Source of the DNA: a virus
Taxonomy: Duplodnaviria; Heunggongvirae; Uroviricota; Caudoviricetes
Direction: 5' to 3' (one strand)
DNA length: 64,000 nucleotides
IMG/VR virus record: IMGVR_UViG_2537561875_000003
Part shown: one piece after another, positions 16,201-58,299 of the stretch
Position numbering within the stretch: position 1 is the first letter of the stretch
Layout of the letters: the number at the start of each line of letters is the position of its first letter
Notes under the pieces: model-generated
What the model was told of the DNA's origin: nothing
The model's input: only the letters and a program-made list of their open reading frames with translations
The model's database searches: none
Position numbers and translations under genes: made by a program

Positions 16201-16296
16201 TAATACCCCTTTAACAAACCCGCTCCGGCGGGTTTTTTTATGCCTAAAAACTCCCCAATACACTTCATCCAAAAATTAAACCCTAAGCAAATCAAA

Positions 16297-16362
16297 ACGC
16301 TAAATACCACATAGCGATAATTTAGCATTTTGCTATTGCCATTTATTTAGCATCGCGCTAAA
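16297..16362. promoter_or_regulatory. OL-type operators of prophage A (TTTAGCATTTTGCTATT at 16321-16337; TTTAGCATCGCGCTAAA at 16346-16362)
   Basis: Same palindromic consensus as the OR sites, located just downstream of cI and upstream of the first pL-side gene. Confidence 0.45.
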
Positions 16363-16392
16363 TTTAAGCCATCCAAACAACACAGCGATGAG

Positions 16393-16602
16393 GTGAACGT
16401 GAAACTTTTAGCAAACATAGATGAGGGCGTAGCAATTGACCTTGAAAAGGTTGCGTGCCTTCTGCGTGAAAAAGACACAAAAAAAACATTGGTTATTTTG
16501 GTTTCTGGCAGTCGCTTTGTCATAGAGCAGCCTCTTACGGAGGTATTGAAGATGATTAGTGACTACGAAGTTATGAGCAAAGAGGAGAAGGGTCTCGGTT
16601 AA
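16393..16602 (+). CDS. Hypothetical protein, first gene of the leftward (pL-like) operon
   Basis: GTG start with GAGGTG RBS; 69 aa. It is not arginine-rich, so not an obvious N. Confidence 0.35.
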   Translation: MNVKLLANIDEGVAIDLEKVACLLREKDTKKTLVILVSGSRFVIEQPLTEVLKMISDYEVMSKEEKGLG

Positions 16603-22893: not shown

Positions 22894-23229
22894 ATGGCGT
22901 CTGACAAACCGATAACAGCACAGCAGGCCGCCGATTTGCTCATCGTGTCGGCGCGGGTGATCTATCGTCTCATTGAATCTGGTGAGCTCGCCGGCCGCAA
23001 GGTCGGCAACAAGTACAGAACGACCGAGGCGGCTTGTATTGCATATTTGAAAACCCCGCGCGATCCTGTCATCGCGAACGCGGGTGAACATAAAGGAGAA
23101 GTTTTATGTCAATCACCCTCAGGGGCGGCGTGTGGCACTGTCATTTCTTTACGCCGTCAGGAAAAAGAGTTAGGCGATCTCTTGGCACGGGGGACAAAAA
23201 GCAGGCTCAGGAGCTCCACGACAAGCTGA
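22894..23229 (+). CDS. xis: Excisionase (Xis-like HTH)
   Basis: N-terminal [32 protein letters not shown] is excisionase-like. The ORF overlaps the int start by about 124 nt. Confidence 0.5.
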
Positions 23230-24269
23230 AGGCGGAAGCGTGGCGGGTTGACCAGATCGGAGACCTTCCCGTCAGAACCTTCGAAGAATGCTGCATCAGG
23301 TGGCTGCGGGAAAAAGACCATAAGCGATCGCTGGATGATGACAAAACCAAAATTGAGTTTTGGCTGCAGCATTTTTCCGGCCGTGATGTCTCGAAGATAA
23401 CGGCGGAGGAAGTTCACGAAGCCGTTAACGGGATGATCAACCGTAAGCACCTGCAGGTATGGGAGAGTAAACGCGATGCCGCGGTGAGGAAGGGTAAGCC
23501 GGTTCCTGAGTACAAACCACGGCAGGTTTCTCAGGCGACGAAGGCGCAGCACCTTTCCTTCATTCGGTCCCTTCTCAGGGCCGCCGCGAATGACTGGGGC
23601 TGGATAAAAACAGCCCCTGTTATCAAAACCCGCAAGCCTATCAGTAAGCGGATACGGTGGCTGACCAGAGAAGAAGCTGAGCGGTTGATCGAGTGCATGC
23701 CGGAGAGCATTAAGCCAGTGGTGATATTTGCACTGGCAACCGGCCTGCGCCGCTCAAACATCATCGGGCTTGAGTGGCAGCAGGTCGATATGCAGAGAAA
23801 GGTTGCATGGGTAAATCCGGAGAACGCAAAAGCGGGCAAGGCGATTGGCGTAGCTCTGAATGATACCGCATGCAGGGTATTAAGGGATCAGATAGGGAAG
23901 CACTCCCGGTGGGTATTCGTTCATACCACGGCAAAACATCGCTCTGACGGAACGCTGACGCCCGCGGTGAGAAAAATGCGGGTGGATGACAATAACGCCT
24001 GGCGCGCCGGGCTGAAAAAAGCGGGGATAGAGGATTTCCGTTTTCACGACCTCCGGCACACCTGGGCGAGCTGGCTGATTCAGTCCGGCGTCCCGCTTTC
24101 TGTTTTGCAGGAAATGGGCGGATGGGAGAGCATCGAGATGGTGCGTCGGTATGCTCACCTGGCGCCGAACCATTTGACCGAACACGCACGGAAAATTGAC
24201 GCCATTTTTGGCGCTAGCGACACAAATACGACACAAGGAGGAAATCAGGCTGGTTTAAAACTGGCGTAA
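23106..24269 (+). CDS. int: Tyrosine integrase, DLP12 IntD-like (argU-specific family)
   Basis: 387 aa, highly similar along its length to IntD as I recall it (...[44 protein letters not shown]). It converges on the tRNA 3'-end copy. Confidence 0.9.
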
Positions 24270-24474: not shown

Positions 24475-25695
24475 ATGGCTAGCACTCTTTTAACAGACAG
24501 CAAAATCAGGGGCCTGAAGCCTAAAAATTCAGCCTATTATACCTGGCAAGCAGCCGCAACCCGCGGCACTGGCAGACTCGGTGTAAAGACTTACCCATCA
24601 GGAAGAAAAACATTCGTCTATCGGTATTTCATCAGCGGAAAAGAGAAGTTTATCGGTCTGGGCGACTTCCCTACCCTTACTCTTTCCGATGCAACCGAGA
24701 AAGCCAGAGCCGCTGCGGCCAGCATATCCGATCCCGCTAAGGCCCAGGTAGAACATGCATCACTTAAAAAGCTGTTTGATGATTATATTGCAGACCAAAA
24801 GGCCAGAGGCAAGCGATCTTACGACAAAACACAAAACCGAATTAATCAGGTTCTGGCAAGCCCGCATATCACCCCAGAGATGCCAGCAAAAGATGTAACC
24901 CCGGACCATATCAAACGCATACTTTCAGAATTTATTGCGAGGGATGCGCGCGCCGGCGCAAACAAAGTACGTTCGAATCTGCATGCCATTTTTAACTTTG
25001 GCCTGTTTGCAGATAACGACCCTGCGAATATCGATAAGAAAACAGTTTATGGTCTGGATCGCAACCCGGTGGCCGCGGTCCCATCGCAGCGCGGAGCAGA
25101 TAAAGCCCTTGACCGATTTTTATCATGGGATGAATTATCTGCGCTGCTGGCAGTCCTTTCCCGCCCAGCAGAAGCAATCCCAATGCATCCCGATTTCGTT
25201 CAGCTGCTGTTGTGTTGTTTACACACAGCAGGGCAGCGCCCGTGGGAGCTAATGACAAACACAAAAGATAACTGGGATAAGAAAGAAAAAACGTTGACGG
25301 TGCCGCCGCACATATCTAAAACGGGTGATTATCATGTCATTCCGTTGAGTGATTCAGCGACGCAGATCCTGCATGTGATGGAAAAACGCTATCCCAAATC
25401 CGATTTTCTTTTCCCCGCGGATACGGCTGAAGGGCATCTTCTTTCAGCTGAGTTCGGGAAGCAGGTAAGAAAATTTTGTGAACGGGAGCCATTTAATAAA
25501 TTCACGCCGAGGGACGTTCGGCGCACATTTAAAACGCTCGCCGGCGCGATGGGTGTAAGCACCGAAATGCGCGACAGATTGCAGAACCATAAAAGAGCCG
25601 GCGTATCAGCCAAGCACTATGACCGATACGACTACATTAAGGAAAAACGCGAAATTATATCGCAATGGGAAGAAAAGTTACTTTCACTCTGTTGA
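24475..25695 (+). CDS. int: Tyrosine integrase, P4-like (DUF4102 arm-binding N-terminus)
   Basis: 406 aa with an N-terminal LTDSKIRGLKPK arm-binding domain and a C-terminal catalytic R...H..R..Y region. Confidence 0.85.
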   Translation: MASTLLTDSKIRGLKPKNSAYYTWQAAATRGTGRLGVKTYPSGRKTFVYRYFISGKEKFIGLGDFPTLTLSDATEKARAAAASISDPAKAQVEHASLKKLFDDYIADQKARGKRSYDKTQNRINQVLASPHITPEMPAKDVTPDHIKRILSEFIARDARAGANKVRSNLHAIFNFGLFADNDPANIDKKTVYGLDRNPVAAVPSQRGADKALDRFLSWDELSALLAVLSRPAEAIPMHPDFVQLLLCCLHTAGQRPWELMTNTKDNWDKKEKTLTVPPHISKTGDYHVIPLSDSATQILHVMEKRYPKSDFLFPADTAEGHLLSAEFGKQVRKFCEREPFNKFTPRDVRRTFKTLAGAMGVSTEMRDRLQNHKRAGVSAKHYDRYDYIKEKREIISQWEEKLLSLC

Positions 25696-27511: not shown

Positions 27512-29458
27512 TTAACCTTTAATCAGTGCATTGTAGAGTGACGTTGCGACCAGATTGCTGCCCGTAGCATTCGGGTGCAGGTTATCGAGAAAGCAGCCGA
27601 GGCTGTTCATTTCAGCCCAGGAGTCGAAAAGGTCATAGATGCTGAAAAACTCGACATTCAGCGTCTGTGACAGGTCGTACATGACGTCACGGAAATCAAC
27701 GATGGGCGTTATCGCTGTTCCGTTCGTGCGGGGTGGTGCCATCAGAATAAATCCCACGTCAGGGAGCACAGCACGACAGGCGGCCATGTACGTTTGCAGA
27801 GCAGTACGGAATGTGGCTGTCGATTCAGAAATCCTGTAATCGTTATTCCCGATGACAATCGCAATCACGTCAGGCTGCATTGTGCTCAGGTACTCCGCGA
27901 TTTTGTCGGAGAACAGCAGGAACTGATCGGCAAGAATCCCGGAATTCCCCGCCTTGCTCATCACACACCCCGCCACGCCACTGCGCCACAGATAAAACCC
28001 GTGGATAGCGACACGCCCCGTGTTGCCATCGGTTTTGATGTATATGGTTCTGACCTCGTCAGCCATGCCTGTCAGCAACACCGATTTTGTCGTGCCGGTA
28101 TTCCCGCAGACAACCTCTGTCCACTGAGTGATCCCGCCAGCGTCGTAGCCGTACTGGAAACGCCCGTTCAAATCCTGGTAGTAAATACGGCAGTCCGTGC
28201 AGCGGACATTCGTCACCCTGAAATAGTCGGTCGCCATGGTCGTATTGACTGACTGACCATCAATTCCGCAGCCGTACAGCGGCGCACCACTTGTCGGCGA
28301 TGAGTCATACAGATTCCACCCTGCAGAGCGGTTGATATTCGAGCCATCGCGTGCCGCTCCGTAGTTAACCGTGCGCCAGCCAAGACCGGCATCACCATAA
28401 TCATCATGCAGCAGCCCGGCGATAGCGGTCGCCAGTTCGTTATTCTGCGTCCAGCTGTCGCCCGTCAGCATGAAGTGTGGCCGGGTTGCAAGGCCAGCTT
28501 TGAGCTGCGCTTTCTTTGCTTTCCAGCGCCACAGGGTTCGCCCGTCGGTATGCAGAGGAATGTTATAAGCGGCGGTGTACATACGCCGCTGATACCATCT
28601 TGCGAAAATTCCCCTGATGTTTGGTCCGATACCCGTCGCATCAAGCTCGCCATCCTGGAACCAGAACGGGACATTTCCGGCGGCATCCATCATCCCTGGT
28701 ACAAAACCAGGGGAAACCAGAGGGACATTCTGGTTAAGCGCGCTGGCGATGATACCGTTGATATAAGCCCATATTTTTTCCAGCAGCCCCGTCGCAATTG
28801 CCGACGCATCCAGCCCACCATTCCAGTACACCGGTACATTGCCGGCGCTGTCCATGAATAACGGGAAAAACAGAGGGGAAACCCCCGTTACCTGCACATT
28901 CAACGCATCCCCCAGCCGCGCATGAACATCCTCATAGATCATCTGATACAACGATGTGGCAATCCGGGAAACCGCAAAACCGTTATCCCAGTACACAGGC
29001 ACGTTCCCGGCCCCATCGACAAAGAAAGGGAAGAAGTCACCACTGACAGCCCCGCTGGCAATAAACTCATCGATAAACTGGATAACTGCGTCGACAGAAC
29101 TCTGTGATGGCATCCTGCGCCCGGTTGCCGTCAGCGTCCCGGCGACATTTCGGTATTCGATCGCCAGAGCGGAATCATCCGGACTGCGTACGTAGGTGGT
29201 GGCACCTACTGGAATACTGGCAATATCAGCCTGAGCCTCTTCCACACTCTGGTATTGCTTGCCAAGTGGGATCAGGTTCTGGCGCGTTTCATCCACAAGT
29301 GCGGCGTTGTCTTCCTGCATTTTCCGCCAGGAGTCCAGCGGTTCACCGGCGCGATCGGGAACAGTAGCCGCAGGCCCGTTCGCCAGCTCATCGATTCGCT
29401 TTGCATTATCGAGCAGCACCTCCGGAGAAGTGCTCCCCAACGGCGGATTAAAGGCCAT
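27512..29458 (-). CDS. Tail fibre with a C-terminal SGNH/GDSL esterase domain
   Basis: Conserved fibre N-terminus (MAFNPPLGSTSPEVLLDNAKRIDELANG), three internal approx. 40-aa repeats (FFPFFVDGAGNVPVYW...), and SGNH blocks (LTGDSWTQN; GNNDY; DNLHPN). Confidence 0.7.
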   Translation of the reverse strand: MAFNPPLGSTSPEVLLDNAKRIDELANGPAATVPDRAGEPLDSWRKMQEDNAALVDETRQNLIPLGKQYQSVEEAQADIASIPVGATTYVRSPDDSALAIEYRNVAGTLTATGRRMPSQSSVDAVIQFIDEFIASGAVSGDFFPFFVDGAGNVPVYWDNGFAVSRIATSLYQMIYEDVHARLGDALNVQVTGVSPLFFPLFMDSAGNVPVYWNGGLDASAIATGLLEKIWAYINGIIASALNQNVPLVSPGFVPGMMDAAGNVPFWFQDGELDATGIGPNIRGIFARWYQRRMYTAAYNIPLHTDGRTLWRWKAKKAQLKAGLATRPHFMLTGDSWTQNNELATAIAGLLHDDYGDAGLGWRTVNYGAARDGSNINRSAGWNLYDSSPTSGAPLYGCGIDGQSVNTTMATDYFRVTNVRCTDCRIYYQDLNGRFQYGYDAGGITQWTEVVCGNTGTTKSVLLTGMADEVRTIYIKTDGNTGRVAIHGFYLWRSGVAGCVMSKAGNSGILADQFLLFSDKIAEYLSTMQPDVIAIVIGNNDYRISESTATFRTALQTYMAACRAVLPDVGFILMAPPRTNGTAITPIVDFRDVMYDLSQTLNVEFFSIYDLFDSWAEMNSLGCFLDNLHPNATGSNLVATSLYNALIKG

Positions 29459-33959: not shown

Positions 33960-36900
33960 CTATCTTGGTTTTTTGGATTGGAGATTTGAATAAATAGCCC
34001 GACCGAATTTCTTCTGTGGGTTATCTATCTCGGCGGTTAGAGAGTTAATAATCCGCTGTTCAAGAGCATTATTTCTTCGCTCAACGGCCTGCATCGTTAT
34101 GTCATCCGGTTTGCCGGTGAACGTGCTTCGTGCGTCCACGCTAACAGCTATCCGTGGCTGCGCCTGAATCTGACTTGCTGCGTTCTGTACCGCAGGGGAC
34201 TCACGACCTACAGCACGAACCCCCAGCGAACCATCAGCACCACGGGTAAGCGGCATGATGGCTTCCGGCCCGGCCTCGCCGAATACACCCGCACCTTTCG
34301 CAAACGCAAAATATTGGGGAGTGCTGTAAACACCATTGCTGTAGGCAGAAAGTGACGGAGAATCGTAAACGCCTCCGAGAGCGTTAAATGAAAAATTAGC
34401 TCCCGCGCTTTGAATAGCGGTACCACTACTTGCCGCACCGCTGGCACCGCCAAAAAGACTACCGAACAACCCACCCGCTCCGCCGCCAAATGACGCCATA
34501 ATCGCTTTAGTGATCAACGCCTGTGTTGCCATCTGGATCAGCGTCTTAATCACCGTTTCGCCCAGGGAAGAAAAAATATTCGACATCCCATCTTTAAACG
34601 AAGCAGCGCCTGTCAGGACGTTTGTCAGGTTGTTGGAGATAGAGTTAGTGGTGGCATCCAGAATCTCGCTGGTTGCAGTGGCAGCCATTGAGCTCAGATC
34701 AGAAGCCTGATTGGCATAATTCATCAGGGAATCGCTGATCCCCGTGCGCCAGTCTGACTGCTGTTCATCGGTCTTTTTGTAGTAGTCCTCCTGAATCGCT
34801 AACCGTTCAGCAAGCGCCGCCTGCAGCGCTTCCGTTTGCTGTTTGTACTGGTCTTCAGAAATTTGCTTCTTGTTAAAGTCACGCTGAAGCTCATCCTGCT
34901 GCTTACGGAAGTCAGTGCGAATATCCGCCATTTCCTTCATGCGGTCGCGGGCTTTATCTCCCATCCCGGCGCCAAGAAAATCTATATTCCCCCGGTCACG
35001 CGCAGCGGCATTACTGTCAGCCAGCCCATCACGGAACGTTTGCAACTGTTCAGCAATGTTTTTCTGATCGATTAGTGCAGCATTTTGCAGGATTATTTCT
35101 TTTTTGGCTTGCTCAAGAGAGGCTAGCTCCCCCTGCGTCACCTGATATTTCATTTTAGCCAGTTCGGTATTCTGGCTTCCCAGGGCAATTTGTTCCTGCT
35201 GCTGTTTAATAAGGCGCTTGTAAACGTCTTCTGTCTTTTCAGCCGCTTTAACCTCTTCGCTTTTTGGCGCTTTCCGGGTGGGTTTATTGGATTCATCATT
35301 TCGCCATTTCGCCAACCCCTGATTAATATACAGATCGCGGTTAGTTTTAAACTGAGGTTCATCCTTGAGCCCTAATTCGTCAGCGGCATAACCTAACCGG
35401 GCTCTCTCCCTTGCTTCTCCTTTAAGCTTTGATAGTTCAAGGTCCTGACGGCTTTTTTCCAGAGCATTGGCTTGCTGTGATGTTAAATCAGCCTGAGGCA
35501 TTCGCATTGGCACGTTAACCAGCCCTTGCCTTTCCATTAAAAGCTGATTCCCCAATCCAAGTAAACGGTTAACTTCGGAATACTTACCAGTCATCATTAC
35601 AAGGTTCTGGTATTCAGAATTTTGCCGCCATGCTCTTTCTTTTATAAGATCGTTTCTTCTTCTTTCTTGTTCCTCCTGTGCCTTTAGTATATCACTTGCC
35701 TTTTCTCGCATCTGCCGTAGTTTGTCTTCTTCTACGACAACCTGTTCGGTAAGAATTGCGATAGCCTTTGTAATATTCAATTCATTTTCTTGAGTAATAC
35801 CTGGCTTGCTTCTACTTTCATTTAAATCCTTTATTTGTCCGTTAAGACTTTTAACGCTCCTTTCTTGTTCTTCGATTAGGCGCTTTTGTTCCTGCATCGC
35901 CTCAACCGATAATCTGCGATTACTATCGACCTCAGGCAGGGTCATTGAGGAGGTTTTTTCTCTGATTTGATCTATTTGGCTGGCATACTCCTGAGCTGAT
36001 TTTCTTGCTTGTTCCTGGCTTTGATACATAGCGTACCATGCGCCAGCACCCAGCATAACTAACCCGGGTATACCGCCGACCAGCCCAAGAGCCCCGCTCA
36101 TTAACCGGGTGCCGACAGAGGTAACGCTGTTAAGGTTATTTTGAGCAGAAATCCTGCCTGAAATATTACGGTTAAGCGCCGCTTGTGCTGCGGCAAGTTT
36201 TCTTTCTGCAATAGCCTGTGCATCGGCATTTTTTGCAGCTACAAGCCCCGCCTGAGCCCGCTCCAGAGCTGTTCGTGCTCGTACTTTTTCTGTAGCTGTT
36301 CCGGTGGAGAGAGCTGTGGTCAATCGACCTTGCGCAGCAGTAACCTTAGCTTCTGCGGCCGCAACCCTCTCCTGTTGTGCAGCCTGAACATCTGCACTTT
36401 TAGCACTCTGAAGGGCTTGCTGGGCGCGGTAAACGGCGGCGCGGGAAGCGGCAACAGAAGATTGCGCGGCTTTTTCCTGAGCGACTGCAAGAGCTACCTC
36501 AGATTTTGCCGCTGAGATAAGTGCGCCAGTAGCACTGCTTGCGCTGGTAACAATCCCGCCAAGATACCGTGCTAATCCAATCCCAACCAGACCACCTGCA
36601 GCGGTGGTAACCAGTGACATATTATCTGCTACGTCACTGAGGGCCCCGCTGACAGCAGAAGATGTAAGTGAATCCAGCGTACCTGCCAGCCCATCAAGAC
36701 CGCCAGAAAGTGCGTCTGTTGCACCAGTCGCCTGGTTTACCCCACCGACCCATGCCATAAACGAGTTAGTGACTTTTTGCATTGAGCCGGACACTGTCGG
36801 CGGTAACGAGGAAAACTCCCCCTGTAACACACCTAACTGGCTGATTAATGCTGGTACGACTTTATCAATCGTGAGTTGCCCCTGGTCAGCCATCGCTTTA

Positions 36901-37538
36901 AGATCTTTTCGGGCAACCCCCATACCAGCAGCCAGGGCACGGATGACACGATCCCCAGCTTCGTTAACCGCGTTAAACTCTTCGCCACGCAAAACACCCT
37001 GAGCAAGCGCCTGGCTAAACTGGGTAATAACAGAACCGGCTTCTTCTGTACTTGCACCAGATAGCTTTAGTCCTGTTGATACCGCTTCGGTGATTTTGAG
37101 TACTTCATCTGAGCTGTAACCAAATTCACGCATTGATGCTGCGGCGCGTGAAAATAAATTAGCGTTATCAGTAAAAGCAGTGCCCGTACTCTGGCTGATC
37201 GCCATTAATCGGGTCTGAGATAAAGTAAAATCATTCGTAGACACTGAGGCTTGTTTAAGCCGTGCATTTACTGAGTTCCATTGATCTGCAATCTGAACCA
37301 GTTTTCCTGTTGCAAATGCTGCAGCTGCAGCTGTGGCAGCCCGACCCGCTGAAGCAAATCCATCCGTTAAATCGGAAAGAGCTTTTTGGCTTTCTTTCGC
37401 AGCGGCAGCAGCCTGGCGCCCACCATTCTGCATGGTTTTATAATAGTCTTGCCCCATGCGTGAAGCTCGGGCGATCTCAGTCTGGAATGATTGAGAGTTT
37501 GCTGAAACCTTTATGATAAGCTCACGTAGGGTTGCCAT
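33960..37538 (-). CDS. Tail tape measure protein
   Basis: About 1190 aa, Ala/Gln-rich helical, with a Gly-rich C-terminal region. Start at ATG 37538 with GAGGA RBS. Confidence 0.85.
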   Translation of the reverse strand: MATLRELIIKVSANSQSFQTEIARASRMGQDYYKTMQNGGRQAAAAAKESQKALSDLTDGFASAGRAATAAAAAFATGKLVQIADQWNSVNARLKQASVSTNDFTLSQTRLMAISQSTGTAFTDNANLFSRAAASMREFGYSSDEVLKITEAVSTGLKLSGASTEEAGSVITQFSQALAQGVLRGEEFNAVNEAGDRVIRALAAGMGVARKDLKAMADQGQLTIDKVVPALISQLGVLQGEFSSLPPTVSGSMQKVTNSFMAWVGGVNQATGATDALSGGLDGLAGTLDSLTSSAVSGALSDVADNMSLVTTAAGGLVGIGLARYLGGIVTSASSATGALISAAKSEVALAVAQEKAAQSSVAASRAAVYRAQQALQSAKSADVQAAQQERVAAAEAKVTAAQGRLTTALSTGTATEKVRARTALERAQAGLVAAKNADAQAIAERKLAAAQAALNRNISGRISAQNNLNSVTSVGTRLMSGALGLVGGIPGLVMLGAGAWYAMYQSQEQARKSAQEYASQIDQIREKTSSMTLPEVDSNRRLSVEAMQEQKRLIEEQERSVKSLNGQIKDLNESRSKPGITQENELNITKAIAILTEQVVVEEDKLRQMREKASDILKAQEEQERRRNDLIKERAWRQNSEYQNLVMMTGKYSEVNRLLGLGNQLLMERQGLVNVPMRMPQADLTSQQANALEKSRQDLELSKLKGEARERARLGYAADELGLKDEPQFKTNRDLYINQGLAKWRNDESNKPTRKAPKSEEVKAAEKTEDVYKRLIKQQQEQIALGSQNTELAKMKYQVTQGELASLEQAKKEIILQNAALIDQKNIAEQLQTFRDGLADSNAAARDRGNIDFLGAGMGDKARDRMKEMADIRTDFRKQQDELQRDFNKKQISEDQYKQQTEALQAALAERLAIQEDYYKKTDEQQSDWRTGISDSLMNYANQASDLSSMAATATSEILDATTNSISNNLTNVLTGAASFKDGMSNIFSSLGETVIKTLIQMATQALITKAIMASFGGGAGGLFGSLFGGASGAASSGTAIQSAGANFSFNALGGVYDSPSLSAYSNGVYSTPQYFAFAKGAGVFGEAGPEAIMPLTRGADGSLGVRAVGRESPAVQNAASQIQAQPRIAVSVDARSTFTGKPDDITMQAVERRNNALEQRIINSLTAEIDNPQKKFGRAIYSNLQSKKPR

Positions 37539-37552
37539 TTGTATCCTCACAG

Positions 37553-37577
37553 GTATAAAAAAAACCGCCTAAGCGGT
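37553..37577 (-). terminator. Intrinsic terminator on the minus strand (aaccgcttaggcggtt plus U8) between the moron and the tape-measure gene. The hairpin is symmetric, so bidirectional.
   Basis: Hairpin flanked by an A-run on one side and a T-run on the other. Confidence 0.5.
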
Positions 37578-37600
37578 TTTCTTTAATTAGCAAGAATGTA

Positions 37601-38122
37601 TCAACTACAAATCTCGCCCCATAGTTTAGAAAATTCAGTTCCACCATCATCAATAATGGTTATTCCACTTTTACTTACATACCTTTTAAACCCAGCATAT
37701 GCACCAAAGCTGTTTTTAGCATTTACTTGTCCGCATACATATCCGTCACGACCAATGATCTGGTTTTTGAAGGTTGCAGATTCGGGGTCTTTTAATTCAG
37801 CCTTAACACTAGGGTTGCTTGCTGATATAACATTCATGTTGTTGTATCTTTTCTGCCTATCGTTCTCGCTAATTCTCATTAGCTCCTCATGGTTCTCATA
37901 CCTCTCCCCCCACAAAGGGACCATTGAGTTAACAAAAAACAAGACAAAAACAGAACCGAGAATTATCAAAAGAGAAGCAATTTCCCCGCCAATCTTATCT
38001 ATATATTTTAAAGGAATAACCAAAACAGCAAAAAGAAACACAATTGATATTGGTTGCCTTAACGCAATAATAAATGCTATAGCAAAAACTACTAAAGATA
38101 AAACGCCCAATATTTTTTTCAT
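37601..38122 (-). CDS. Moron: membrane protein (3 predicted TM helices plus an approx. 100-aa C-terminal soluble domain)
   Basis: The gene region (37560-38190) is clearly lower in GC than both flanks. It is inserted between the GT chaperone genes and the tape-measure gene and has its own downstream terminator. Confidence 0.6.
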   Translation of the reverse strand: MKKILGVLSLVVFAIAFIIALRQPISIVFLFAVLVIPLKYIDKIGGEIASLLIILGSVFVLFFVNSMVPLWGERYENHEELMRISENDRQKRYNNMNVISASNPSVKAELKDPESATFKNQIIGRDGYVCGQVNAKNSFGAYAGFKRYVSKSGITIIDDGGTEFSKLWGEICS

Positions 38123-38196
38123 TTTTTATCCCAATAGGTAGAAAAGAACTAAAATCCTACCATTGGATAAGTAAAACTTCAGCTATCATTGTTTGT

Positions 38197-38502
38197 TCAA
38201 GCTGATGCTGCGAGCAAAGCGGCCTCCAAGCCTGCAAAGGGATCGCCGCCGTCGTTTACCTCAATCTCTTCTGTGCTCCACTGAAGCTGAGCATCTTCAA
38301 TGGTGACTTTAACGCCCTGCGCTCCGTAAACCGCAGATACCAGCTGAGCATTGAGGATATCGCCGCGAATATCGCCGATTGGGCTGATACGGTCGTACTC
38401 AGCCCACATCCTGAATTCGCCGACCGTCATGGTTTGTCGCAGTTCGCCCAGCGTGCGGCCCATCCGGAGCGCCAGCGCCATCAGGAACTGCATGCCAGGC
38501 AT
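38197..38502 (-). CDS. T segment of the tail assembly chaperone G-T (expressed by -1 frameshift)
   Basis: Open in the -1 frame relative to G from 4 codons before the G stop. Candidate A_AAG slip site. Confidence 0.5.
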   Translation of the reverse strand: MPGMQFLMALALRMGRTLGELRQTMTVGEFRMWAEYDRISPIGDIRGDILNAQLVSAVYGAQGVKVTIEDAQLQWSTEEIEVNDGGDPFAGLEAALLAASA

Positions 38503-38504
38503 TT

Positions 38505-38909
38505 TTACTTTGCATTAGCATCATCCGCGTCACGAATGAGATCAAGTGCCTGCTTCAACAGCCGGGAATGCACGGGGCCATAGATCGCTTCAACCTGTTC
38601 GGTGTCATCGACAGTAAAGACGGGCTGCAGGTCGGTATCCAGCAAAATATCGATGAAAAGCGTGACGTCGGCCCGCATCGTGCGGAAGGCTCGTTCTGAA
38701 GGGGTCAGTTCTGGTGCCTCTGGTGCTTCCTGCCCTTCCGGTGGTTTGGGTTGTTCCGGGCTGGCGATCCCCTGCCAGCGAATCCAGGCTTCTGCTGAAG
38801 GCTCACGAATGATGACTTTGGCGTTATCCCACTCCGGAACGGAGACTTCTTTTTTACGAAAGCCCGCCATCGGTGCCAGTGCCAGTGCTTTAAGACTCGG
38901 TTTTGACAT
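38505..38909 (-). CDS. Tail assembly chaperone G-like
   Basis: 134 aa acidic protein between the major tail gene and the tape-measure gene. Confidence 0.6.
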   Translation of the reverse strand: MSKPSLKALALAPMAGFRKKEVSVPEWDNAKVIIREPSAEAWIRWQGIASPEQPKPPEGQEAPEAPELTPSERAFRTMRADVTLFIDILLDTDLQPVFTVDDTEQVEAIYGPVHSRLLKQALDLIRDADDANAK

Positions 38910-38939: not shown

Positions 38940-39656
38940 TTAATTGATGGTGACGGTGCAATCAGAAGAAGTGATCACAGTGCCATCGGCATCAGTAACC
39001 ACGCAGGAATAAACCCCGGCATCACCGGATACAGCGCTGGCTTTCGTAAACGTTGCGCTGGTCTGGCCGCTGACCGTCGAGGTGCCCTTTTTCCAGACGT
39101 AGGTATAAGGTGCCGTACCGCCCTGGACGACTACGCCCATAGTCAGGGCGCTTCCTGCCGCGACCGTTTGAGACGCCGGAAGGTCAGTAGCAAACGACAG
39201 AACTCCTGGGGCGTTAATATTGGTGGGTTTACCTTTCAGACGCAGCGAGAACGTTGCAGCAACAACACCGTTGGTTTGAGAATCCCAGGTGTGCTGACGT
39301 ACCTCAGCGCGCATCAGGAATCCATTACCAGACGGGAAAATAACCTTAAACCCATAAACCCCGTCGTTATCATATGCTTCACGAAGTGCATCCTGCGCCG
39401 GGTTGCGGTAGAAGTTACCGGAAAGTGACATTTCAGACGGAGCAGGAAGGCCGTTGATATTTTCCGTTTCATCCGAACAGAGCGTTGTCACGTCAATATC
39501 GTTTTTCTGACCAGCGGTAAAGCTTGCCTGTTTGATAGTGCAACTCAGGTTTAACCAGGTTGCGGTATCCAGCTCTGCCGCAGTGACCGGCACAGAGGTA
39601 ATCATTACTACCGTTTTTTGGGCACGTTCAAATAGTGCTGACATCGCAGCCTCCAT
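38940..39656 (-). CDS. Major tail protein with a C-terminal Ig-like (Big_2) domain
   Basis: V-like N-terminal region plus a C-terminal Big_2-like segment (...YTYVWKKG...GVYSCVVTDADG). Confidence 0.7.
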   Translation of the reverse strand: MEAAMSALFERAQKTVVMITSVPVTAAELDTATWLNLSCTIKQASFTAGQKNDIDVTTLCSDETENINGLPAPSEMSLSGNFYRNPAQDALREAYDNDGVYGFKVIFPSGNGFLMRAEVRQHTWDSQTNGVVAATFSLRLKGKPTNINAPGVLSFATDLPASQTVAAGSALTMGVVVQGGTAPYTYVWKKGTSTVSGQTSATFTKASAVSGDAGVYSCVVTDADGTVITSSDCTVTIN

Positions 39657-40840: not shown

Positions 40841-41167
40841 TTAAATACCATAAATTTTGTAAGGCTGGAGAAGTGACTCGACAGTAAACGGAATATCTGT
40901 AGCAGCCTGACCGACAGAGACCGTTTCACGGTTTTCGTACCAGTGACCGATAAGCAGAAGCATCGCTGCTTTCACATCATCGCCAGGGAGAATTGAATCA
41001 GGATCATCTGCATACCCCTCGCTGGTTTCGGACTCATACATTTTGCGACGAGTCCATGTTTCGACATAACGAGAAGCAGCTCCGATGTAGAGGGTCAATA
41101 GTGAGTCGTCATCGGTAAAGTCAGGCTCAATGCGACAGTGCTTTTTAACCACTTCAAGTTCTAACAT
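40841..41167 (-). CDS. Head-tail connector (gp6-like)
   Basis: 108 aa; gp6-like N-terminus. Confidence 0.55.
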   Translation of the reverse strand: MLELEVVKKHCRIEPDFTDDDSLLTLYIGAASRYVETWTRRKMYESETSEGYADDPDSILPGDDVKAAMLLLIGHWYENRETVSVGQAATDIPFTVESLLQPYKIYGI

Positions 41168-41463
41168 TATTTTTTAGCCTTCTTCTCTGGCACAGTTTCC
41201 GGCTGTTCCGGCTGTTCCGGCTGTTCCGGCTGTTCCGGCTGTTCCGGCTGTTCCGGCTGTTCCGGCTGTTCCGGCTGTTCCGGCTGTTCCGGCTGTTCCG
41301 GCTGTTCCGGCTGTTCCGGCTGCGCAGAATTATCAACATCTACCAGCCGTGCATAACCTTTTTGAACCAACTCACGGCCATGCTGTTCCAGCGTCTCCAG
41401 TGACTCGCCTTCAGTCACCACTACCCCACCAAAATAAACTGGTTTCACCGCGATAAGTTTCAT
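41167..41463 (-). CDS. Small head-region protein with a (PEQ)n repeat of about 13 units
   Basis: 98 aa between the major capsid gene and the connector gene; contains the tandem repeat. Confidence 0.5.
   Translation of the reverse strand: MKLIAVKPVYFGGVVVTEGESLETLEQHGRELVQKGYARLVDVDNSAQPEQPEQPEQPEQPEQPEQPEQPEQPEQPEQPEQPEQPEQPETVPEKKAKK
41195..41330. repeat. Perfect tandem repeat of a 9-bp unit (ccggctgtt), roughly 13-15 copies
   Basis: Directly visible at 41195-41330. The frame-shifted ORF giving SRNSRNS is an artefact of the same repeat. Confidence 0.9.
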
Positions 41464-51899: not shown

Positions 51900-52682
51900 T
51901 TAGTAAGTCGTTGCCTTCTCGAATTCTACAGCCGCTTGTCGCTCACCCTTACGCAGCATGTCCACCAGCCCCTCATAGAACGGTTTCCAGTTGCGTGACC
52001 ACGAAGACTGATGGAGATCAGGGAGACGCTTCAGAATGGCGCGGTGAACCGTCGCTGAGGGTACAACAGAGAAGCCATTTCCAGAGCAGCGCTCACATGT
52101 TTTGAAAACCGGTGCGCCAAGTTCTTTGGTCGCTTTGCGATCTAACACCTCCCCTTTACCACCACACCTGCATCGCGCATGGATCACTTTCTTTCCTCCA
52201 CACACTCCACAGACCCTTTTCACCAGTTCATTTTTAATCTTTGGGGCCTTCACCTCGACACCGTCTGCATCGAAAATACCAGGGTGCTTAATTACATCTT
52301 CATGGCGGGAAATAAAGCCGGTACCGCTGCAGTTGTGACACGTTGCGCTGGTGGCCGCCGAACGTGAGTATTCCGCAAAGGCAAATTGCGCCAGCGTAAA
52401 CATGCAGCCTCCGAGCTCGTCACCAGCGGCTTTGCGGACATTTTTAGGAGCGTTTTTGATGGCAAACTGCGCCAGCGCTTGAACTGCGAGCTGTTCATCC
52501 GTTTTGCTGATACCAGCCTTTCCGAAGAAAGCGGCCAAGCCGAAGCGTGCCCTGCTGCTGGTCACACCGATCCCGGTCATAATGTCTGTGCCATTCAGGC
52601 GATTCGGCGATGTGCTTTTCACGTCGTCGCTGATATGCATCCCCTGCGGGCTAAAGTGTTTGAGGGAGGCTTCCAGTTTCAT
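51900..52682 (-). CDS. Putative late regulator in the Q position, with four CxxCxGxG (DnaJ-type) zinc-finger repeats
   Basis: CHNCSGTG, CGVCGGKK, CRCGGKG, CERCSGNG. Upstream of a candidate late promoter/terminator pair and the lysis genes. Confidence 0.4.
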   Translation of the reverse strand: MKLEASLKHFSPQGMHISDDVKSTSPNRLNGTDIMTGIGVTSSRARFGLAAFFGKAGISKTDEQLAVQALAQFAIKNAPKNVRKAAGDELGGCMFTLAQFAFAEYSRSAATSATCHNCSGTGFISRHEDVIKHPGIFDADGVEVKAPKIKNELVKRVCGVCGGKKVIHARCRCGGKGEVLDRKATKELGAPVFKTCERCSGNGFSVVPSATVHRAILKRLPDLHQSSWSRNWKPFYEGLVDMLRKGERQAAVEFEKATTY

Positions 52683-53155
52683 TCTTCGCACTCCCCGACC
52701 AGGTTCAAAATAATGCAATCAAACAGCGAATCCCGTTCCTCAAAATAGTCACATGCCAGTAACCACTTGCAGACTGTTAATGCTTCAGCCCGGGTAACAG
52801 GTTTCATGACGCACAAAAGGTCAGTGAGCCACCCACGCCGATCCCAGATAATCTGGACGTAGCCATCGCCATTTTGTGTTTTATACCTGTGACGAAGTAC
52901 AGATTCCCAATAATCCCATTCAATGGTTACATCGCTTAATGTCCAGGGAGAGAGGAGGATGTTTTTAAAACCTTTTATTTCTCTTACGCGAAGTTCTTCT
53001 GCCTCACGACTTAAGTTTTTTTCATCGGCCCAGTTTGCATAAATATGACTGAAGCACTCCATAACAAGACGCTCAGCATCAGTAATTTTCTCAGGCGAAA
53101 AGTCCTGTTCGATGGTGAAGAATTGGTTATGTTGCAGATTGTTATTGTTCATCAT
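52679..53155 (-). CDS. Hypothetical protein
   Basis: 158 aa, coupled. Confidence 0.35.
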   Translation of the reverse strand: MMNNNNLQHNQFFTIEQDFSPEKITDAERLVMECFSHIYANWADEKNLSREAEELRVREIKGFKNILLSPWTLSDVTIEWDYWESVLRHRYKTQNGDGYVQIIWDRRGWLTDLLCVMKPVTRAEALTVCKWLLACDYFEERDSLFDCIILNLVGECEE

Positions 53156-56866: not shown

Positions 56867-57541
56867 GTGGCCATGGCAAACATGATTCAAGAACTTCTGA
56901 AGGAAAAAGGGTGGAGTAAAGCCGAGCTGGCTCGTCAGTTAGGGGTTAGCACGCAGACGGTTGTCTACTGGACGAAGGGAGACACTGTCCCAAGGGGTAA
57001 GAGATTAGCCCAGCTTTCTGAAATCAGTGGATACCCACAATCCTGGTTTCTGGGTGAGGGACAACCCGCCACCTTCCCTGCGTCCGCTCAAAAAGGAGAT
57101 ACTGATAGCGTTAAATTCAAAGTATTAGATATTGAATTCAGTTGTGGTGATGGAGTTAGCGTGAAAAGTGACTTCATTGATGTGGTCCGCTCCATAGAGT
57201 TAGACCCCGAGTACGCCCGTCAAGTTGTAGGCAACAGACCCTTCAAGAACATTGAGATTGGCAATGCCAGGGGTGATAGCATGTCGCCAACAATAGCACC
57301 GGGTGATTTATTATTTCTAGATAAAACAATAACATACTTCGATGGTGACGGGATTTATGCTTTTTGTTTTGAAGGTGAATGTTATGTAAAGAGGCTGCAA
57401 AAAATAGGCAGCAAAATTGTAGTATTATCTGACAACTCGAATTACCAATCTTGGAGCATCGAGAAGGATGCCTTGGATATGCTCTACATCCAGTCAAAAG
57501 TTATCTCATCAGTTCCTTTCAACATTAACAGATTCGGTTAA
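56867..57541 (+). CDS. cI: CI repressor (HTH plus S24 peptidase)
   Basis: XRE HTH (WSKAELARQLGVSTQTVVYW) and S24 motifs (GDSMSPTI). Confidence 0.8.
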   Translation: MAMANMIQELLKEKGWSKAELARQLGVSTQTVVYWTKGDTVPRGKRLAQLSEISGYPQSWFLGEGQPATFPASAQKGDTDSVKFKVLDIEFSCGDGVSVKSDFIDVVRSIELDPEYARQVVGNRPFKNIEIGNARGDSMSPTIAPGDLLFLDKTITYFDGDGIYAFCFEGECYVKRLQKIGSKIVVLSDNSNYQSWSIEKDALDMLYIQSKVISSVPFNINRFG

Positions 57542-57552
57542 TTATTGATAGA

Positions 57553-57583
57553 CAACGGGCTTTTGCCCGTTCCTCCCTTTTAA
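57553..57583 (+). terminator. Terminator after cI (aacgggcttttgcccgtt)
   Basis: Hairpin followed by a T-rich stretch. Confidence 0.4.
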
Positions 57584-57606
57584 ATCTACCTATACCAAAA
57601 AAACAA

Positions 57607-57668
57607 TCAAGTTTAACTTGACTGCATAAAATCATAAAGCTAACCTCTCACTATCAAGTTTAACTTGA
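57607..57668. promoter_or_regulatory. OL-type operators of prophage B: two perfect 15-bp palindromes TCAAGTTTAACTTGA (57607-57621 and 57654-57668)
   Basis: Perfect palindromes spaced 47 bp apart, upstream of the first pL-side gene. Confidence 0.55.
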
Positions 57669-57703
57669 TTTAGTAAGCGCTCAATACTTGTGTGAGGTGA
57701 ACA

Positions 57704-58117
57704 ATGAAAACTCCAATCCAAATGCTTGAAGTGTTTGTATCAGACATAATAGAAAACACTGTTCTTCTGGAGGAGATCTATAAAAAAAGTAACGAGAATT
57801 ACGAAACAGATTGTTCTATAAACAGCCTAATTCGTTCAATGCAAAAGACCGTAGATAACATGAACGGATATATTAAGAGTCATATTAATTCAGTCAAACC
57901 CTGCATACCTGTAGCGGCCAGAAACGATCTGGCTGATGATATATTCGATGTGATTCTTACTGCTAAAAAACTTGAAGCACTCGCACAAACTTATAGTGAG
58001 TCTTTTTTTACTGACGAGGACAATGACAACCCCGCGTGCCATATGTCAGCTGTGATATTTGACTATGCTCGTGAACTTTGCACTGATCTTAAGGCTATCG
58101 AGAATAAAATAGGCTAA
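57704..58117 (+). CDS. AT-rich acidic hypothetical protein (first gene after OL)
   Basis: 137 aa; clearly AT-rich relative to its surroundings. Confidence 0.4.
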   Translation: MKTPIQMLEVFVSDIIENTVLLEEIYKKSNENYETDCSINSLIRSMQKTVDNMNGYIKSHINSVKPCIPVAARNDLADDIFDVILTAKKLEALAQTYSESFFTDEDNDNPACHMSAVIFDYARELCTDLKAIENKIG

Positions 58118-58299
58118 TTACGAAACCAGTTTAGAACGGCCTTGGGGTGCCGGGGGTTCTTGCCCCCTAAATATTGCGAGGTATTTGTTATGAGTTTCAT
58201 TATTGACCGCAACGCATATAAAACCGCCCTGCTTTATGCAGCTAACGGGCACGAAATAATAGCAGGCCTTTATCTGCGTAAAGCCTACGGGAGGTAATT

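What the first reader, a model, noticed from the sequence alone, without database searches (positions are those of the whole stretch)
37553..38190. Low-GC membrane-protein moron with its own terminator between the G/GT chaperones and the tape-measure gene, at the same position as HK97 gp15
A 173-aa protein (three N-terminal TM helices plus a soluble C-terminal domain, GRDGYVCGQVNAKNSFGAYAGFKRYV) sits inside an otherwise tightly packed tail operon. The gene region is clearly lower in GC than the flanking tail genes. A clean hairpin plus U8 terminator separates it from the tape-measure start. In HK97, the moron at exactly this position (gp15) is an inner-membrane superinfection-exclusion protein that blocks tape-measure-dependent DNA injection. 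This is a candidate new exclusion or defence protein, and its soluble C-terminal domain looks unlike any family I recognise.
Basis: partly seen in the sequence, partly recalled or inferred. Interest (0 to 1): 0.7.

Follow-up and report, generated by a model that had tools for sequence, protein, structure and literature searches.

The report
Swappable prophage membrane-protein cassette before tape-measure gene
A Klebsiella prophage carries, at the spot where phage HK97 keeps its gp15 exclusion gene, an unrelated, exchangeable gene for an inner-membrane protein; its periplasmic domain belongs to a very large uncharacterised family that recurs in prophage "extra gene" slots, so it is a good but untested candidate for a new anti-phage or lysogenic-conversion protein.

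Summary
A real 173-aa gene (window 38122..37601, minus strand) lies between tail chaperone T and the tape-measure gene. Its GC is 0.36 against 0.50-0.58 in the neighbours. A hairpin plus T-run sits just before the tape-measure ribosome-binding site. The protein has three N-terminal TM helices, a long stalk helix and a compact C-terminal alpha+beta domain.

The moron reading is strongly supported. In 80 relatives with a T protein at least 95% identical, this slot holds five alternative cassettes. The commonest, in 54 of 80, is a YebO-family homologue of HK97 gp15. Four cassette types occur on tape-measure genes at least 97% identical.

ORF173 is not related to gp15 or to P22 SieA. Its domain (KDPxSA...CGxVNAKNxxGxYxG...C) has no Pfam, PADLOC or PDB relative, but about 14,600 50%-identity clusters carry it. 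It nearly always follows a signal peptide, lipobox or TM segment. It recurs in other prophage accessory slots, including directly downstream of CI-like repressors, and is sometimes fused to peptidoglycan-binding domains.

Exclusion of incoming phage at the cell envelope is the most likely function, but it rests on position and topology alone. No experiment or characterised homologue supports it.

The parts
38123..38196 (-). AT-rich upstream spacer of the cassette (GC 0.30). It holds the only promoter-like site: CTGAAG, 17 nt, then TGgTAGGAT (38182..38154), an extended -10 ending 31 nt before the ATG.
   Evidence: The first ~50 nt, including this site, are nearly identical (one substitution) in locus L136, where a different gene follows. 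The consensus match is weak (3/6 + 4/6 + TG), and the tool scan found no minus-strand promoter.
37601..38122 (-). ORF173 coding sequence (173 aa plus stop), the cargo gene of the cassette.
37913..38122 (-). Residues 1-70, the membrane anchor: three TM helices at 2-20, 24-39 and 46-70. K2 and K3 at the N terminus and K39 and K43 in loop 2 point to N-in, C-out.
   Evidence: AlphaFold2 and hydropathy. The orientation is inferred from the positive-inside rule and from homologues that carry the same domain behind a signal peptide or lipobox.
37799..37906 (-). Residues 73-108: a single long charged helix acting as a stalk. Its sequence and length vary across the family.
   Evidence: alignment.
37604..37798 (-). 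Residues 109-173: the conserved periplasmic alpha+beta domain, with motifs LKDPESAxF and CGQVNAKNSFGAYAG and a conserved cysteine pair (C130, C172).
   Evidence: pLDDT 92.7; both cysteines present in 145 of 146 representatives.
37557..37580 (-). Intrinsic-terminator-like hairpin AAAACCGC/TTAG/GCGGTTTT followed by TTTT, 18 nt upstream of the tape-measure ATG. The A-tract makes it symmetric, so it could act in both directions.
   Evidence: Every alternative cassette in this slot, and HK97 gp15, ends with its own hairpin and T-run at the same place.
33960..37538 (-). Tape-measure gene, the downstream boundary of the slot. The start is revised to ATG 37538.
38197..38909 (-). Tail assembly chaperone genes G (38505-38909) and T (38197-38502), the upstream boundary of the slot. 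Cassette junctions fall within the last ~30 nt of T.
51900..52718 (-). Q-type antiterminator of the same prophage. It explains how late transcription could read through the cassette terminator to reach the tape-measure gene.
   Evidence: PF03589, E 2.2e-45. Read-through is inferred from established lambda and HK97 biology.

Best explanation
The segment 37557-38196 is an exchangeable moron cassette in the tail operon of an HK97-like Klebsiella pneumoniae prophage. It occupies the same slot as HK97 gene 15 and behaves like an allele of it.

**What the product is.** The protein is anchored in the inner membrane by three TM helices. A helix of about 36 residues holds a small, probably disulfide-bonded alpha+beta domain out into the periplasm.

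**Most likely function.**
1. The gene is transcribed in the lysogen from a weak promoter of its own and stopped by its own terminator.
2. During lytic growth, Q-antiterminated late transcription reads through that terminator.
3. The protein acts at the cell envelope against incoming phages. It interferes with passage of the tail tip, tape-measure protein or DNA across the peptidoglycan and inner membrane. This is superinfection exclusion at the DNA-entry step.

**Shown here:**
- the anatomy of the cassette;
- the composition shift;
- cassette swapping on near-identical backbones;
- the extracytoplasmic nature of the domain;
- recurrence of the domain in prophage accessory slots.

**Inferred:**
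- expression from the prophage;
- the target;
- the exclusion phenotype.
For: **1. Slot survey.** Eighty IMG/VR loci have a T protein at least 95% identical. Their slot contents are:

| Slot content | Loci |
|---|---|
| 77-aa YebO-family protein | 54 |
| ORF173 | 14 |
| 137-aa lipoprotein | 4 |
| ~94-aa secreted, Cys-rich protein | 4 |
| Lipoprotein with the same KDPxSA domain | 1 |
| Cassette plus an extra ~1.07-kb segment with a transposase-like ORF | 3 |

**2. Link to gp15.** The 77-aa protein is 49% identical to HK97 gp15. Both pass the Pfam gathering score for PF13974 YebO. gp15 is a proven inner-membrane exclusion protein whose block depends on the incoming phage's tail (PMC3594210).

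**3. Swapping.** One cluster of tape-measure N-termini, at least 97% identical over residues 1-400, carries ORF173 (14 loci), the 137-aa lipoprotein (4), the secreted protein (4) and YebO (1). The T protein of an E. coli 219 prophage that carries YebO is 100% identical to the window's T.

**4. Cassette ends.** Every cassette ends with its own hairpin and T-run directly before the tape-measure ribosome-binding site. Every product is a membrane or exported protein.

**5. Composition.** GC 0.36 and GC3 0.32.

**6. The domain lies outside the cytoplasm.** Of 146 representatives, 140 have a hydrophobic segment or lipobox upstream of the domain, and 145 keep both cysteines.

**7. Other homes of the domain.**
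- The K-I tail-tip slot of Klebsiella, Escherichia and Pseudomonas lambdoid phages.
- Between ogr and int in P2-like SEN5.
- Divergently placed next to a tape-measure gene in Paracoccus Pkon1 and in metagenomic phages.
- Next to a tape-measure gene in Sphingomonas.
- Immediately downstream of an S24 CI-like repressor on the same strand.
- Beside integrases or a type I restriction-modification methylase.

**8. Peptidoglycan link.** The domain is fused to SPOR or PG_binding_1 domains in two phages.

**9. Read-through.** A Q antiterminator is present in the prophage.

**10. Selection.** dN/dS is 0.12-0.14.
Against: - No member of the family has a tested function. Literature searches found nothing.
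- There is no similarity to gp15 or to P22 SieA. PADLOC gives no hit.
- The promoter evidence is weak.
- Position alone does not fix function. Morons also encode virulence and fitness factors such as Bor, Lom and SopE (PMC3594210).
- The polar motif is strongly conserved across Alpha-, Beta- and Gammaproteobacteria. That suggests a conserved host ligand rather than a variable phage protein. It fits receptor or peptidoglycan-level interference, but it fits a non-phage envelope function equally well.
Confidence: 0.45

Rival explanations
1. It is a lysogenic-conversion envelope factor that benefits the host for reasons unrelated to phage exclusion. The periplasmic domain would bind peptidoglycan or another conserved envelope component. 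Examples: protection against lysozyme, bacteriocins, type VI secretion effectors or serum, or a change in envelope physiology.
For: - The polar motif is highly conserved in about 14,600 clusters across Proteobacteria, which points to a conserved host ligand.
- The domain is fused to the SPOR and PG_binding_1 peptidoglycan-binding domains.
- Morons are known to encode such factors, for example Bor and Lom (PMC3594210).
Against: - The slot's commonest occupant is a proven exclusion family.
- Several homologues sit directly beside tape-measure genes, or directly downstream of a CI-like repressor on the same strand, where lambda carries its exclusion genes rexAB (the lambda comparison is from general knowledge).
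- All seven chromosomal homologues whose neighbours were scanned lie in mobile-element or defence contexts, not in housekeeping operons.
Confidence: 0.3
2. It is a membrane-bound abortive or sensing defence rather than a passive block. The periplasmic domain would sense phage penetration, and the three-TM module would then depolarise or permeabilise the membrane.
For: - The three-TM bundle plus periplasmic sensor architecture.
- Family members combine the domain with varied N-terminal modules: one to three TM segments, cytoplasmic zinc ribbons, or a ~95-aa cytoplasmic extension in KpLi5.
- Prophage and defence-island contexts.
Against: - Most family members are simple lipoproteins or signal-peptide proteins with no membrane effector part. 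The conserved activity therefore lies in the periplasmic domain itself.
- No PADLOC match.
Confidence: 0.1
3. It is an accessory protein of the phage's own lytic cycle, for example in tail assembly, injection or lysis timing, and is not a prophage-expressed gene.
For: - It lies inside the late tail operon on the same strand, and Q-antiterminated late transcripts would include it.
- The promoter evidence is weak.
Against: - Near-identical tail operons do without it or carry unrelated genes in its place.
- Its GC differs sharply from the operon.
- Homologues occur on the opposite strand from the tail genes, or next to the repressor or integrase.
- An inner-membrane protein with a periplasmic domain has no obvious role in cytoplasmic tail assembly.
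Confidence: 0.08

Closest known systems
HK97 gp15 / YebO family (PF13974), the first described moron; an inner-membrane superinfection-exclusion protein
   Same: - Exactly the same slot (T, gene, hairpin with T-run, tape-measure gene) in an HK97-like tail operon.
- Lower GC than the neighbours.
- A membrane protein.
- In close relatives of this prophage the slot holds a true gp15 homologue, 49% identical, so ORF173 is a positional alternative to it.
   Different: - No sequence similarity, and no PF13974 match.
- 173 aa with three TM helices and a folded periplasmic domain, against 62-77 aa with one TM helix and a short helical tail.
- Function untested.
P22 SieA, an inner-membrane exclusion protein that blocks the ejection-protein conduit
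   Same: - Similar size: 162-164 aa against 173.
- Three predicted TM helices.
- Prophage-encoded, lying beside virion or injection genes (PMC10883804).
   Different: - No similarity by BLASTP or profile comparison.
- In SieA one hydrophobic segment lies at the N terminus and the others near the C terminus, with no folded C-terminal domain visible in the sequence. ORF173 has three N-terminal TM helices followed by a periplasmic domain.
PHROG 16400 and 2320 (with 35207, 36625, 21797 and 38187): phage protein families of unknown function
   Same: Direct sequence membership: E 2e-42 and 2.5e-26. The lipoprotein variant in locus L136 also falls in phrog_2320.
   Different: These families carry no functional annotation, so membership says nothing about mechanism.
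Envelope-level exclusion lipoproteins and periplasmic proteins: Cor (phi80, N15, HK022), T5 Llp, T4 Sp and Imm, Streptococcus TP-J34 Ltp (from general knowledge)
   Same: Small exported or membrane-anchored proteins, encoded near tail genes, that act outside the cytoplasm on entry of a superinfecting phage. Many homologues of ORF173 are lipoproteins.
   Different: - No sequence family shared.
- The resemblance is in logic only.
Cystatin-like, NTF2-like and PepSY-like alpha+beta rolls (SnoaL, VirB8 periplasmic domain, YpmB, YpeB)
   Same: One helix packed against a four-stranded antiparallel sheet. VirB8 and PepSY proteins are also extracytoplasmic domains tethered by an N-terminal TM helix.
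   Different: - Foldseek against the PDB gives nothing below E 0.68.
- This is a generic fold resemblance, not evidence of homology.

Membership tests
Moron (Juhala/Hendrix sense, as summarised in PMC3594210) | An extra gene present in some, and absent from or replaced in other, otherwise collinear phage genomes | tested here: met
   Of 80 relatives, 14 carry ORF173 and the rest carry other cassettes. Four cassette types occur on tape-measure genes at least 97% identical. Only 1 of 5,426 complete E. coli genomes has it, while 11 others match only the 200 bases of T.
Moron (Juhala/Hendrix sense, as summarised in PMC3594210) | Base composition differs from the surrounding genes | tested here: met
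   GC 0.36 and GC3 0.32, against 0.50-0.58 and 0.44-0.64. 0.55th percentile of the window.
Moron (Juhala/Hendrix sense, as summarised in PMC3594210) | Own transcription terminator | tested here: met
   Hairpin plus T-run at 37580..37557, -10.1 kcal/mol. The same feature ends all alternative cassettes and HK97 gp15. This is sequence-level evidence only.
Moron (Juhala/Hendrix sense, as summarised in PMC3594210) | Own promoter | tested here: inconclusive
   The only candidate is a weak extended -10 site, CTGAAG-17-TGgTAGGAT. It is shared with the L136 cassette. The consensus scan found none on this strand.
Moron (Juhala/Hendrix sense, as summarised in PMC3594210) | Expressed from the repressed prophage | not testable with these tools
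   Needs RNA-seq or 5' RACE on a lysogen.
HK97 gp15 / YebO family (PF13974) | Sequence match to the YebO profile or to gp15 | tested here: not met
   No Pfam hit at E <= 0.1. BLASTP against gp15 gives E 0.85. As positive controls, gp15 (35.4 bits) and the 77-aa slot protein (60 bits) both pass the 27-bit cut-off.
HK97 gp15 / YebO family (PF13974) | Small (about 60-80 aa) protein with a single TM helix | tested here: not met
   173 aa, three TM helices plus a folded domain.
HK97 gp15 / YebO family (PF13974) | Located between the tail chaperone T and the tape-measure gene | tested here: met
HK97 gp15 / YebO family (PF13974) | Excludes phage at DNA entry in a way that depends on the incoming phage's tail | not testable with these tools
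   Needs plating and DNA-entry assays.
P22 SieA family | Sequence similarity to SieA (types A-C) | tested here: not met
   BLASTP E 0.68. hhalign probability 0.4% against alignment A1. Only type A (P22) was tested.
Known anti-phage defence systems (PADLOC-DB v2) | Match to any defence-protein model | tested here: not met
   No family matched at E <= 10.
KDPxSA / CGxVNAKN periplasmic domain family (PHROG 16400, 2320 and others; no Pfam entry) | Conserved motifs K-D-P-x-S-A-x-F and C-G-x-V-N-A-K-N-x-x-G-x-Y-x-G, plus a C-terminal cysteine | tested here: met
   D112, G131, N137 and G144 are invariant in both alignments; C130 is invariant among 146 representatives and at least 90% conserved among 20 homologues. 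C172 is at least 90% conserved. PHROG E-values are 2e-42 and 2.5e-26. The profile search finds 14,581 clusters at E <= 1e-3.
KDPxSA / CGxVNAKN periplasmic domain family (PHROG 16400, 2320 and others; no Pfam entry) | Domain lies on the extracytoplasmic side, behind a signal peptide, lipobox or TM segment | tested here: met
   140 of 146 representatives have an upstream hydrophobic segment or lipobox. ORF173 has three TM helices with a predicted N-in, C-out orientation. The orientation itself is inferred.
Cystatin / NTF2 / PepSY-like fold | Significant structural match to a solved member | tested here: inconclusive
   [not shown]

The most novel reading that the evidence does not exclude
The KDPxSA/CGxVNAKN domain defines a very large, unannotated family of periplasmic prophage modules: about 14,600 clusters at 50% identity, with no entry in Pfam, PADLOC or the PDB. 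They would block phage genome entry by binding a conserved envelope component such as peptidoglycan, at the point where the tail tip and tape-measure protein cross the periplasm. ORF173 would be its inner-membrane-tethered version. It would be a functional alternative to gp15 in the same slot, making this a widespread new class of superinfection exclusion across Proteobacteria.
Probability: 0.3. Interest if true: 0.7.

Novelty: new variant of a known kind. Interest (0 to 1): 0.52.

Why it matters
**Why the slot is useful.** Envelope-level superinfection exclusion is poorly catalogued, because the proteins are small, diverse and absent from defence-system databases. Here one tail-operon slot holds five interchangeable envelope proteins, and one of them is the proven gp15/YebO family. 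That gives a natural guilt-by-position screen for new exclusion factors in Klebsiella pneumoniae, where prophage-encoded resistance matters for phage therapy.

**What a positive result would give.** If ORF173 excludes phage, its domain would assign a function to thousands of hypothetical lipoproteins and membrane proteins in prophages of Alpha-, Beta- and Gammaproteobacteria. It would also offer a tool for studying how siphophage tape-measure proteins cross the periplasm.

**What a negative result would leave.** The locus would still be a clean, well-sampled example of cassette exchange at a moron site.

Tried and rejected
**Searches that found nothing**
- Pfam, NCBIfam and PADLOC scans of ORF173. 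The only marginal hit was TcaA at 13 bits and E 0.032, far below its 550-bit cut-off, so it was disregarded.
- Foldseek against the PDB with the full-length model: best E 0.68.
- BFVD: only uncharacterised phage homologues.
- A profile search of PDB sequences.
- The afdb50 structure library was not available.
- Literature searches for a characterised member or for this slot in Klebsiella phages. The original gp15 paper (PMC3430355) is not held, so gp15 facts come from the authors' addendum (PMC3594210).
- A genome-contig scan with ORF173. It found no close full-length relative among species-representative genomes, only distant domain-level hits.

**Hypotheses tested and rejected**
- Homology to HK97 gp15.
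- Homology to P22 SieA.
- A link to the Tai tail-assembly-interference systems. Those lie mostly upstream of the packaging module, and the paper's text gave no sign of membrane proteins.

**Analyses that were uninformative**
- Tape-measure variant and cassette type are associated, but this was not used as evidence for a functional interaction. Physical linkage would produce the same pattern.
- dN/dS among alleles at least 95% identical rests on too few substitutions to mean anything.
Full report
**1. What is in the sequence**

- The minus strand carries a late operon of an HK97-like siphophage.
- In transcription order the genes are: major capsid, connectors, major tail protein (38940-39656), chaperone G (38505-38909, PF06222), T (38197-38502, PF06223) and a tape-measure gene (PF06120, PF20155, PF09718).
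- Between T and the tape-measure gene lies a 173-aa ATG-initiated ORF, 38122..37601.
- It is a real gene.
  - It matches phrog_16400 at E 2e-42 and phrog_2320 at E 2.5e-26.
  - It has full-length homologues at 47-56% identity.
  - Against 91%-identical alleles dN/dS is 0.12-0.14.
- All megablast hits of the surrounding 5.7 kb in the phage collection are Klebsiella phages. The best is vB_VIPKPNMC05, at 96.9% identity over the whole stretch.

**2.

- GC of the ORF is 0.360 (GC3 0.322). T is 0.578, G is 0.548 and the tape-measure gene is 0.495.
- The ORF lies at the 0.55th percentile of all 522-nt windows of the 64 kb.
- The 62-nt spacer after the stop codon contains AAAACCGC-TTAG-GCGGTTTT-TTTT (37580..37557), with a predicted energy of -10.1 kcal/mol.
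- One correction: the tape-measure gene most likely starts at ATG 37538 (MATLRELII, preceded by GAGGA), not at the GTG at 37550 found mechanically.
  - This gives 3579 nt, the length annotated in vB_VIPKPNMC05 and E. coli W409.
- HK97 has the same layout: T stop, 59 nt, gene 15, a hairpin with T8, then the tape-measure ATG.

**3. The protein**

- AlphaFold2 on the full length (pLDDT 86) predicts TM helices at 2-20, 24-39 and 46-70.
- These are followed by a 36-residue helix (73-108), four strands (117-157) and a terminal helix (162-171).
- The C-terminal part alone, modelled with 133 sequences, reaches pLDDT 92.7.
- Lysines at the N terminus and in loop 2 suggest N-in, C-out. That would place the domain in the periplasm.
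- This placement is backed by the family.
  - The domain follows a signal peptide, lipobox or TM segment in 140 of 146 representatives.
  - Two cysteines (C130, C172) are present in 145 of 146.
- The conserved motifs are LKDPxSAxF and CGxVNAKNSFGxYxG.

**4. Not a known family, but not rare**

- Pfam, NCBIfam and PADLOC give nothing.
- None of the 146 representatives has a Pfam hit on the domain. Twelve carry N-terminal zinc ribbons.
- An exhaustive profile search finds 14,581 clusters at 50% identity with E <= 1e-3, and 7,145 with E <= 1e-10.
- Structure searches find no homologue.
  - Foldseek against the PDB: best E 0.68.
  - PDB sequence profile: nothing.
  - BFVD: only uncharacterised phage proteins.

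**5. The slot is a swap site, and gp15 is its usual occupant**

I collected 80 IMG/VR loci whose T protein is at least 95% identical to the window's. I then extracted the T-to-tape-measure interval from each.

| Slot content | Loci |
|---|---|
| 77-aa single-TM protein | 54 |
| ORF173 | 14 |
| 137-aa lipoprotein (phrog_6823) | 4 |
| ~94-aa signal-peptide, Cys-rich protein | 4 |
| 134-aa lipoprotein with the same KDPxSA domain (phrog_2320; L136) | 1 |
| Cassette plus an extra ~1.07-kb segment with a transposase-like ORF | 3 |

- The 77-aa protein is 49% identical to HK97 gp15. Both pass the gathering score of PF13974 YebO.
- ORF173 has no similarity to gp15.
- Within one cluster of tape-measure N-termini at least 97% identical over residues 1-400, four cassette types occur: ORF173 (14), the 137-aa lipoprotein (4), the secreted protein (4) and YebO (1).
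- The T protein of a YebO-carrying prophage in E. coli 219 is 100% identical to the window's.
- Junctions lie in the last ~30 nt of T and at the tape-measure ribosome-binding site.
- Every cassette brings its own hairpin and T-run.
- Only 1 of 5,426 complete E. coli genomes has ORF173.
- Together these results satisfy the comparative, compositional and terminator criteria of a moron as described in PMC3594210.

**6. Promoter and read-through**

- The only promoter-like element in the 74-nt upstream spacer is CTGAAG-17-TGgTAGGAT (38182..38154).
- It is weak. However, the ~50 nt that contain it are shared nearly verbatim (one substitution) with the L136 cassette, and the two sequences diverge just downstream of the -10.
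- The other cassettes have comparably placed weak candidates. I rate the promoter inconclusive.
- The prophage encodes a Q antiterminator (51900-52718, PF03589, E 2.2e-45) upstream of the holin, endolysin and late genes.
- Late transcription can therefore plausibly ignore the cassette terminator. This is inferred from lambda and HK97 biology.

**7. Where else the domain lives**

Homologues occupy other classic accessory positions of temperate phages:

- The K-I tail-tip slot:
  - Klebsiella KpLi5 and relatives, at 36-37% identity over the full length with an added cytoplasmic N-terminus;
  - Klebsiella Kpn74;
  - Escherichia phage Fraca;
  - Pseudomonas AUS531phi.
- Between ogr and the integrase in P2-like SEN5.
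- Between tail and lysis genes in PAJU2.
- Divergently placed beside the tape-measure gene in Paracoccus Pkon1 and in metagenomic phages.
- Next to a tape-measure gene in Sphingomonas.
- Immediately downstream of an S24 CI-like repressor on the same strand, in a marine phage group and in Pseudooceanicola.
- Beside HTH regulators, integrases or a type I restriction-modification methylase.

All seven chromosomal homologues whose neighbours I scanned are in mobile-element or defence contexts. In AUS531phi the domain is fused to a SPOR domain, and in Pkon1 to PG_binding_1. Both fusions point to action at the peptidoglycan layer.

**8. Interpretation**

- Shown: an exchangeable, compositionally foreign cassette that encodes an inner-membrane-tethered extracytoplasmic protein.
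- That protein is positionally allelic to a proven exclusion gene. Its domain is recurrently recruited to prophage accessory slots.
- Inferred: expression in the lysogen, and interference with entry of incoming phage.
- I put exclusion at DNA entry at about 0.45.
- The main rival is a phage-unrelated envelope or host-fitness role, at about 0.3.
  - It is favoured by the very strong conservation of a polar motif across proteobacterial classes.
  - That conservation argues for a conserved host ligand rather than a fast-evolving phage target.
- A sensing or abortive membrane defence is at about 0.1, and a lytic-cycle accessory role at about 0.08.
- The protein is not a member of the gp15/YebO or SieA families. 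The resemblance to them is in location and logic only.

**9. Verdict**

- The moron interpretation is strongly supported and extended.
- The exclusion function is plausible but untested.
- This is a new variant of a known kind: a non-homologous cargo in a known moron slot, built on a large uncharacterised domain family.
- Interest is moderate. The locus offers a ready-made comparative panel, five cassettes on near-identical backbones, for experimental tests.

Noticed in passing
window 37538-37550: The mechanically listed tape-measure ORF starts at GTG 37550 (MRIQMATL...). Relatives, and the GAGGA ribosome-binding site, indicate ATG 37538 (MATLRELII), which gives a 3579-nt gene.
   Followed up: yes
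IMG/VR loci L111, L144-L146; L089, L147-L149; L136: Three further cassettes of unknown function occupy the same T-to-tape-measure slot, each with its own terminator. They are a 137-aa lipoprotein (phrog_6823), a ~94-aa secreted Cys-rich protein with a GTG start (phrog_21025, weak match), and a 134-aa lipoprotein carrying the same KDPxSA domain (phrog_2320).
   Followed up: partly
L006:5061-5159 (HK97 genome 13560-13658, between K and I): The K-I gap of HK97 contains a 32-aa ORF, MYTVGFGWIFVGIFIGLILWFFINRASVRANR, that by eye resembles the N-terminal TM part of gp15/YebO proteins. A putative terminator is annotated after it. If so, both the YebO family and the KDPxSA family would occur in both the T-to-tape-measure slot and the K-I slot.
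   Followed up: no
L071, L094, L103 (IMG/VR relatives): In three of 80 relatives the slot is about 1,066 nt longer than a plain ORF173 or YebO cassette, and the extra DNA carries a transposase-like ORF. In L071 the extra DNA lies downstream of the ORF173 start. ORF173 matches intact on the same contig (L010), so the insertion is probably between ORF173 and the tape-measure gene, where it could be polar on tape-measure expression.
   Followed up: partly
window 41167-41463 (minus strand), repeat at 41197-41322: A 98-aa ORF between the major capsid gene and the head-tail connector carries 14 perfect copies of a 9-nt repeat, which encode (PEQ)n. It matches phrog_5463 (unknown function). Relatives such as W409 and vB_VIPKPNMC05 have only a 78-nt gap at this place.
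   Followed up: partly
window about 15981-16600 and about 57081-58240: These are the only other stretches of the window with GC below 0.40 in 522-nt windows. They may be further foreign cargo genes.
   Followed up: no
window 23106-24269 and 24475-25695: Two tyrosine-integrase genes lie 200 nt apart on the plus strand. This suggests two mobile elements integrated side by side at the prophage end.
   Followed up: no
window 27512-29458 (minus strand): The 648-aa protein downstream of the J-like gene has a C-terminal GDSL/SGNH esterase domain (PF13472, PF00657). It may be a receptor-binding protein that deacetylates polysaccharide.
   Followed up: no
window 37596-38141 (plus strand): A 181-aa ORF lies antisense to ORF173. 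It is a low-complexity shadow of the AT-rich gene and is not treated as coding.
   Followed up: partly
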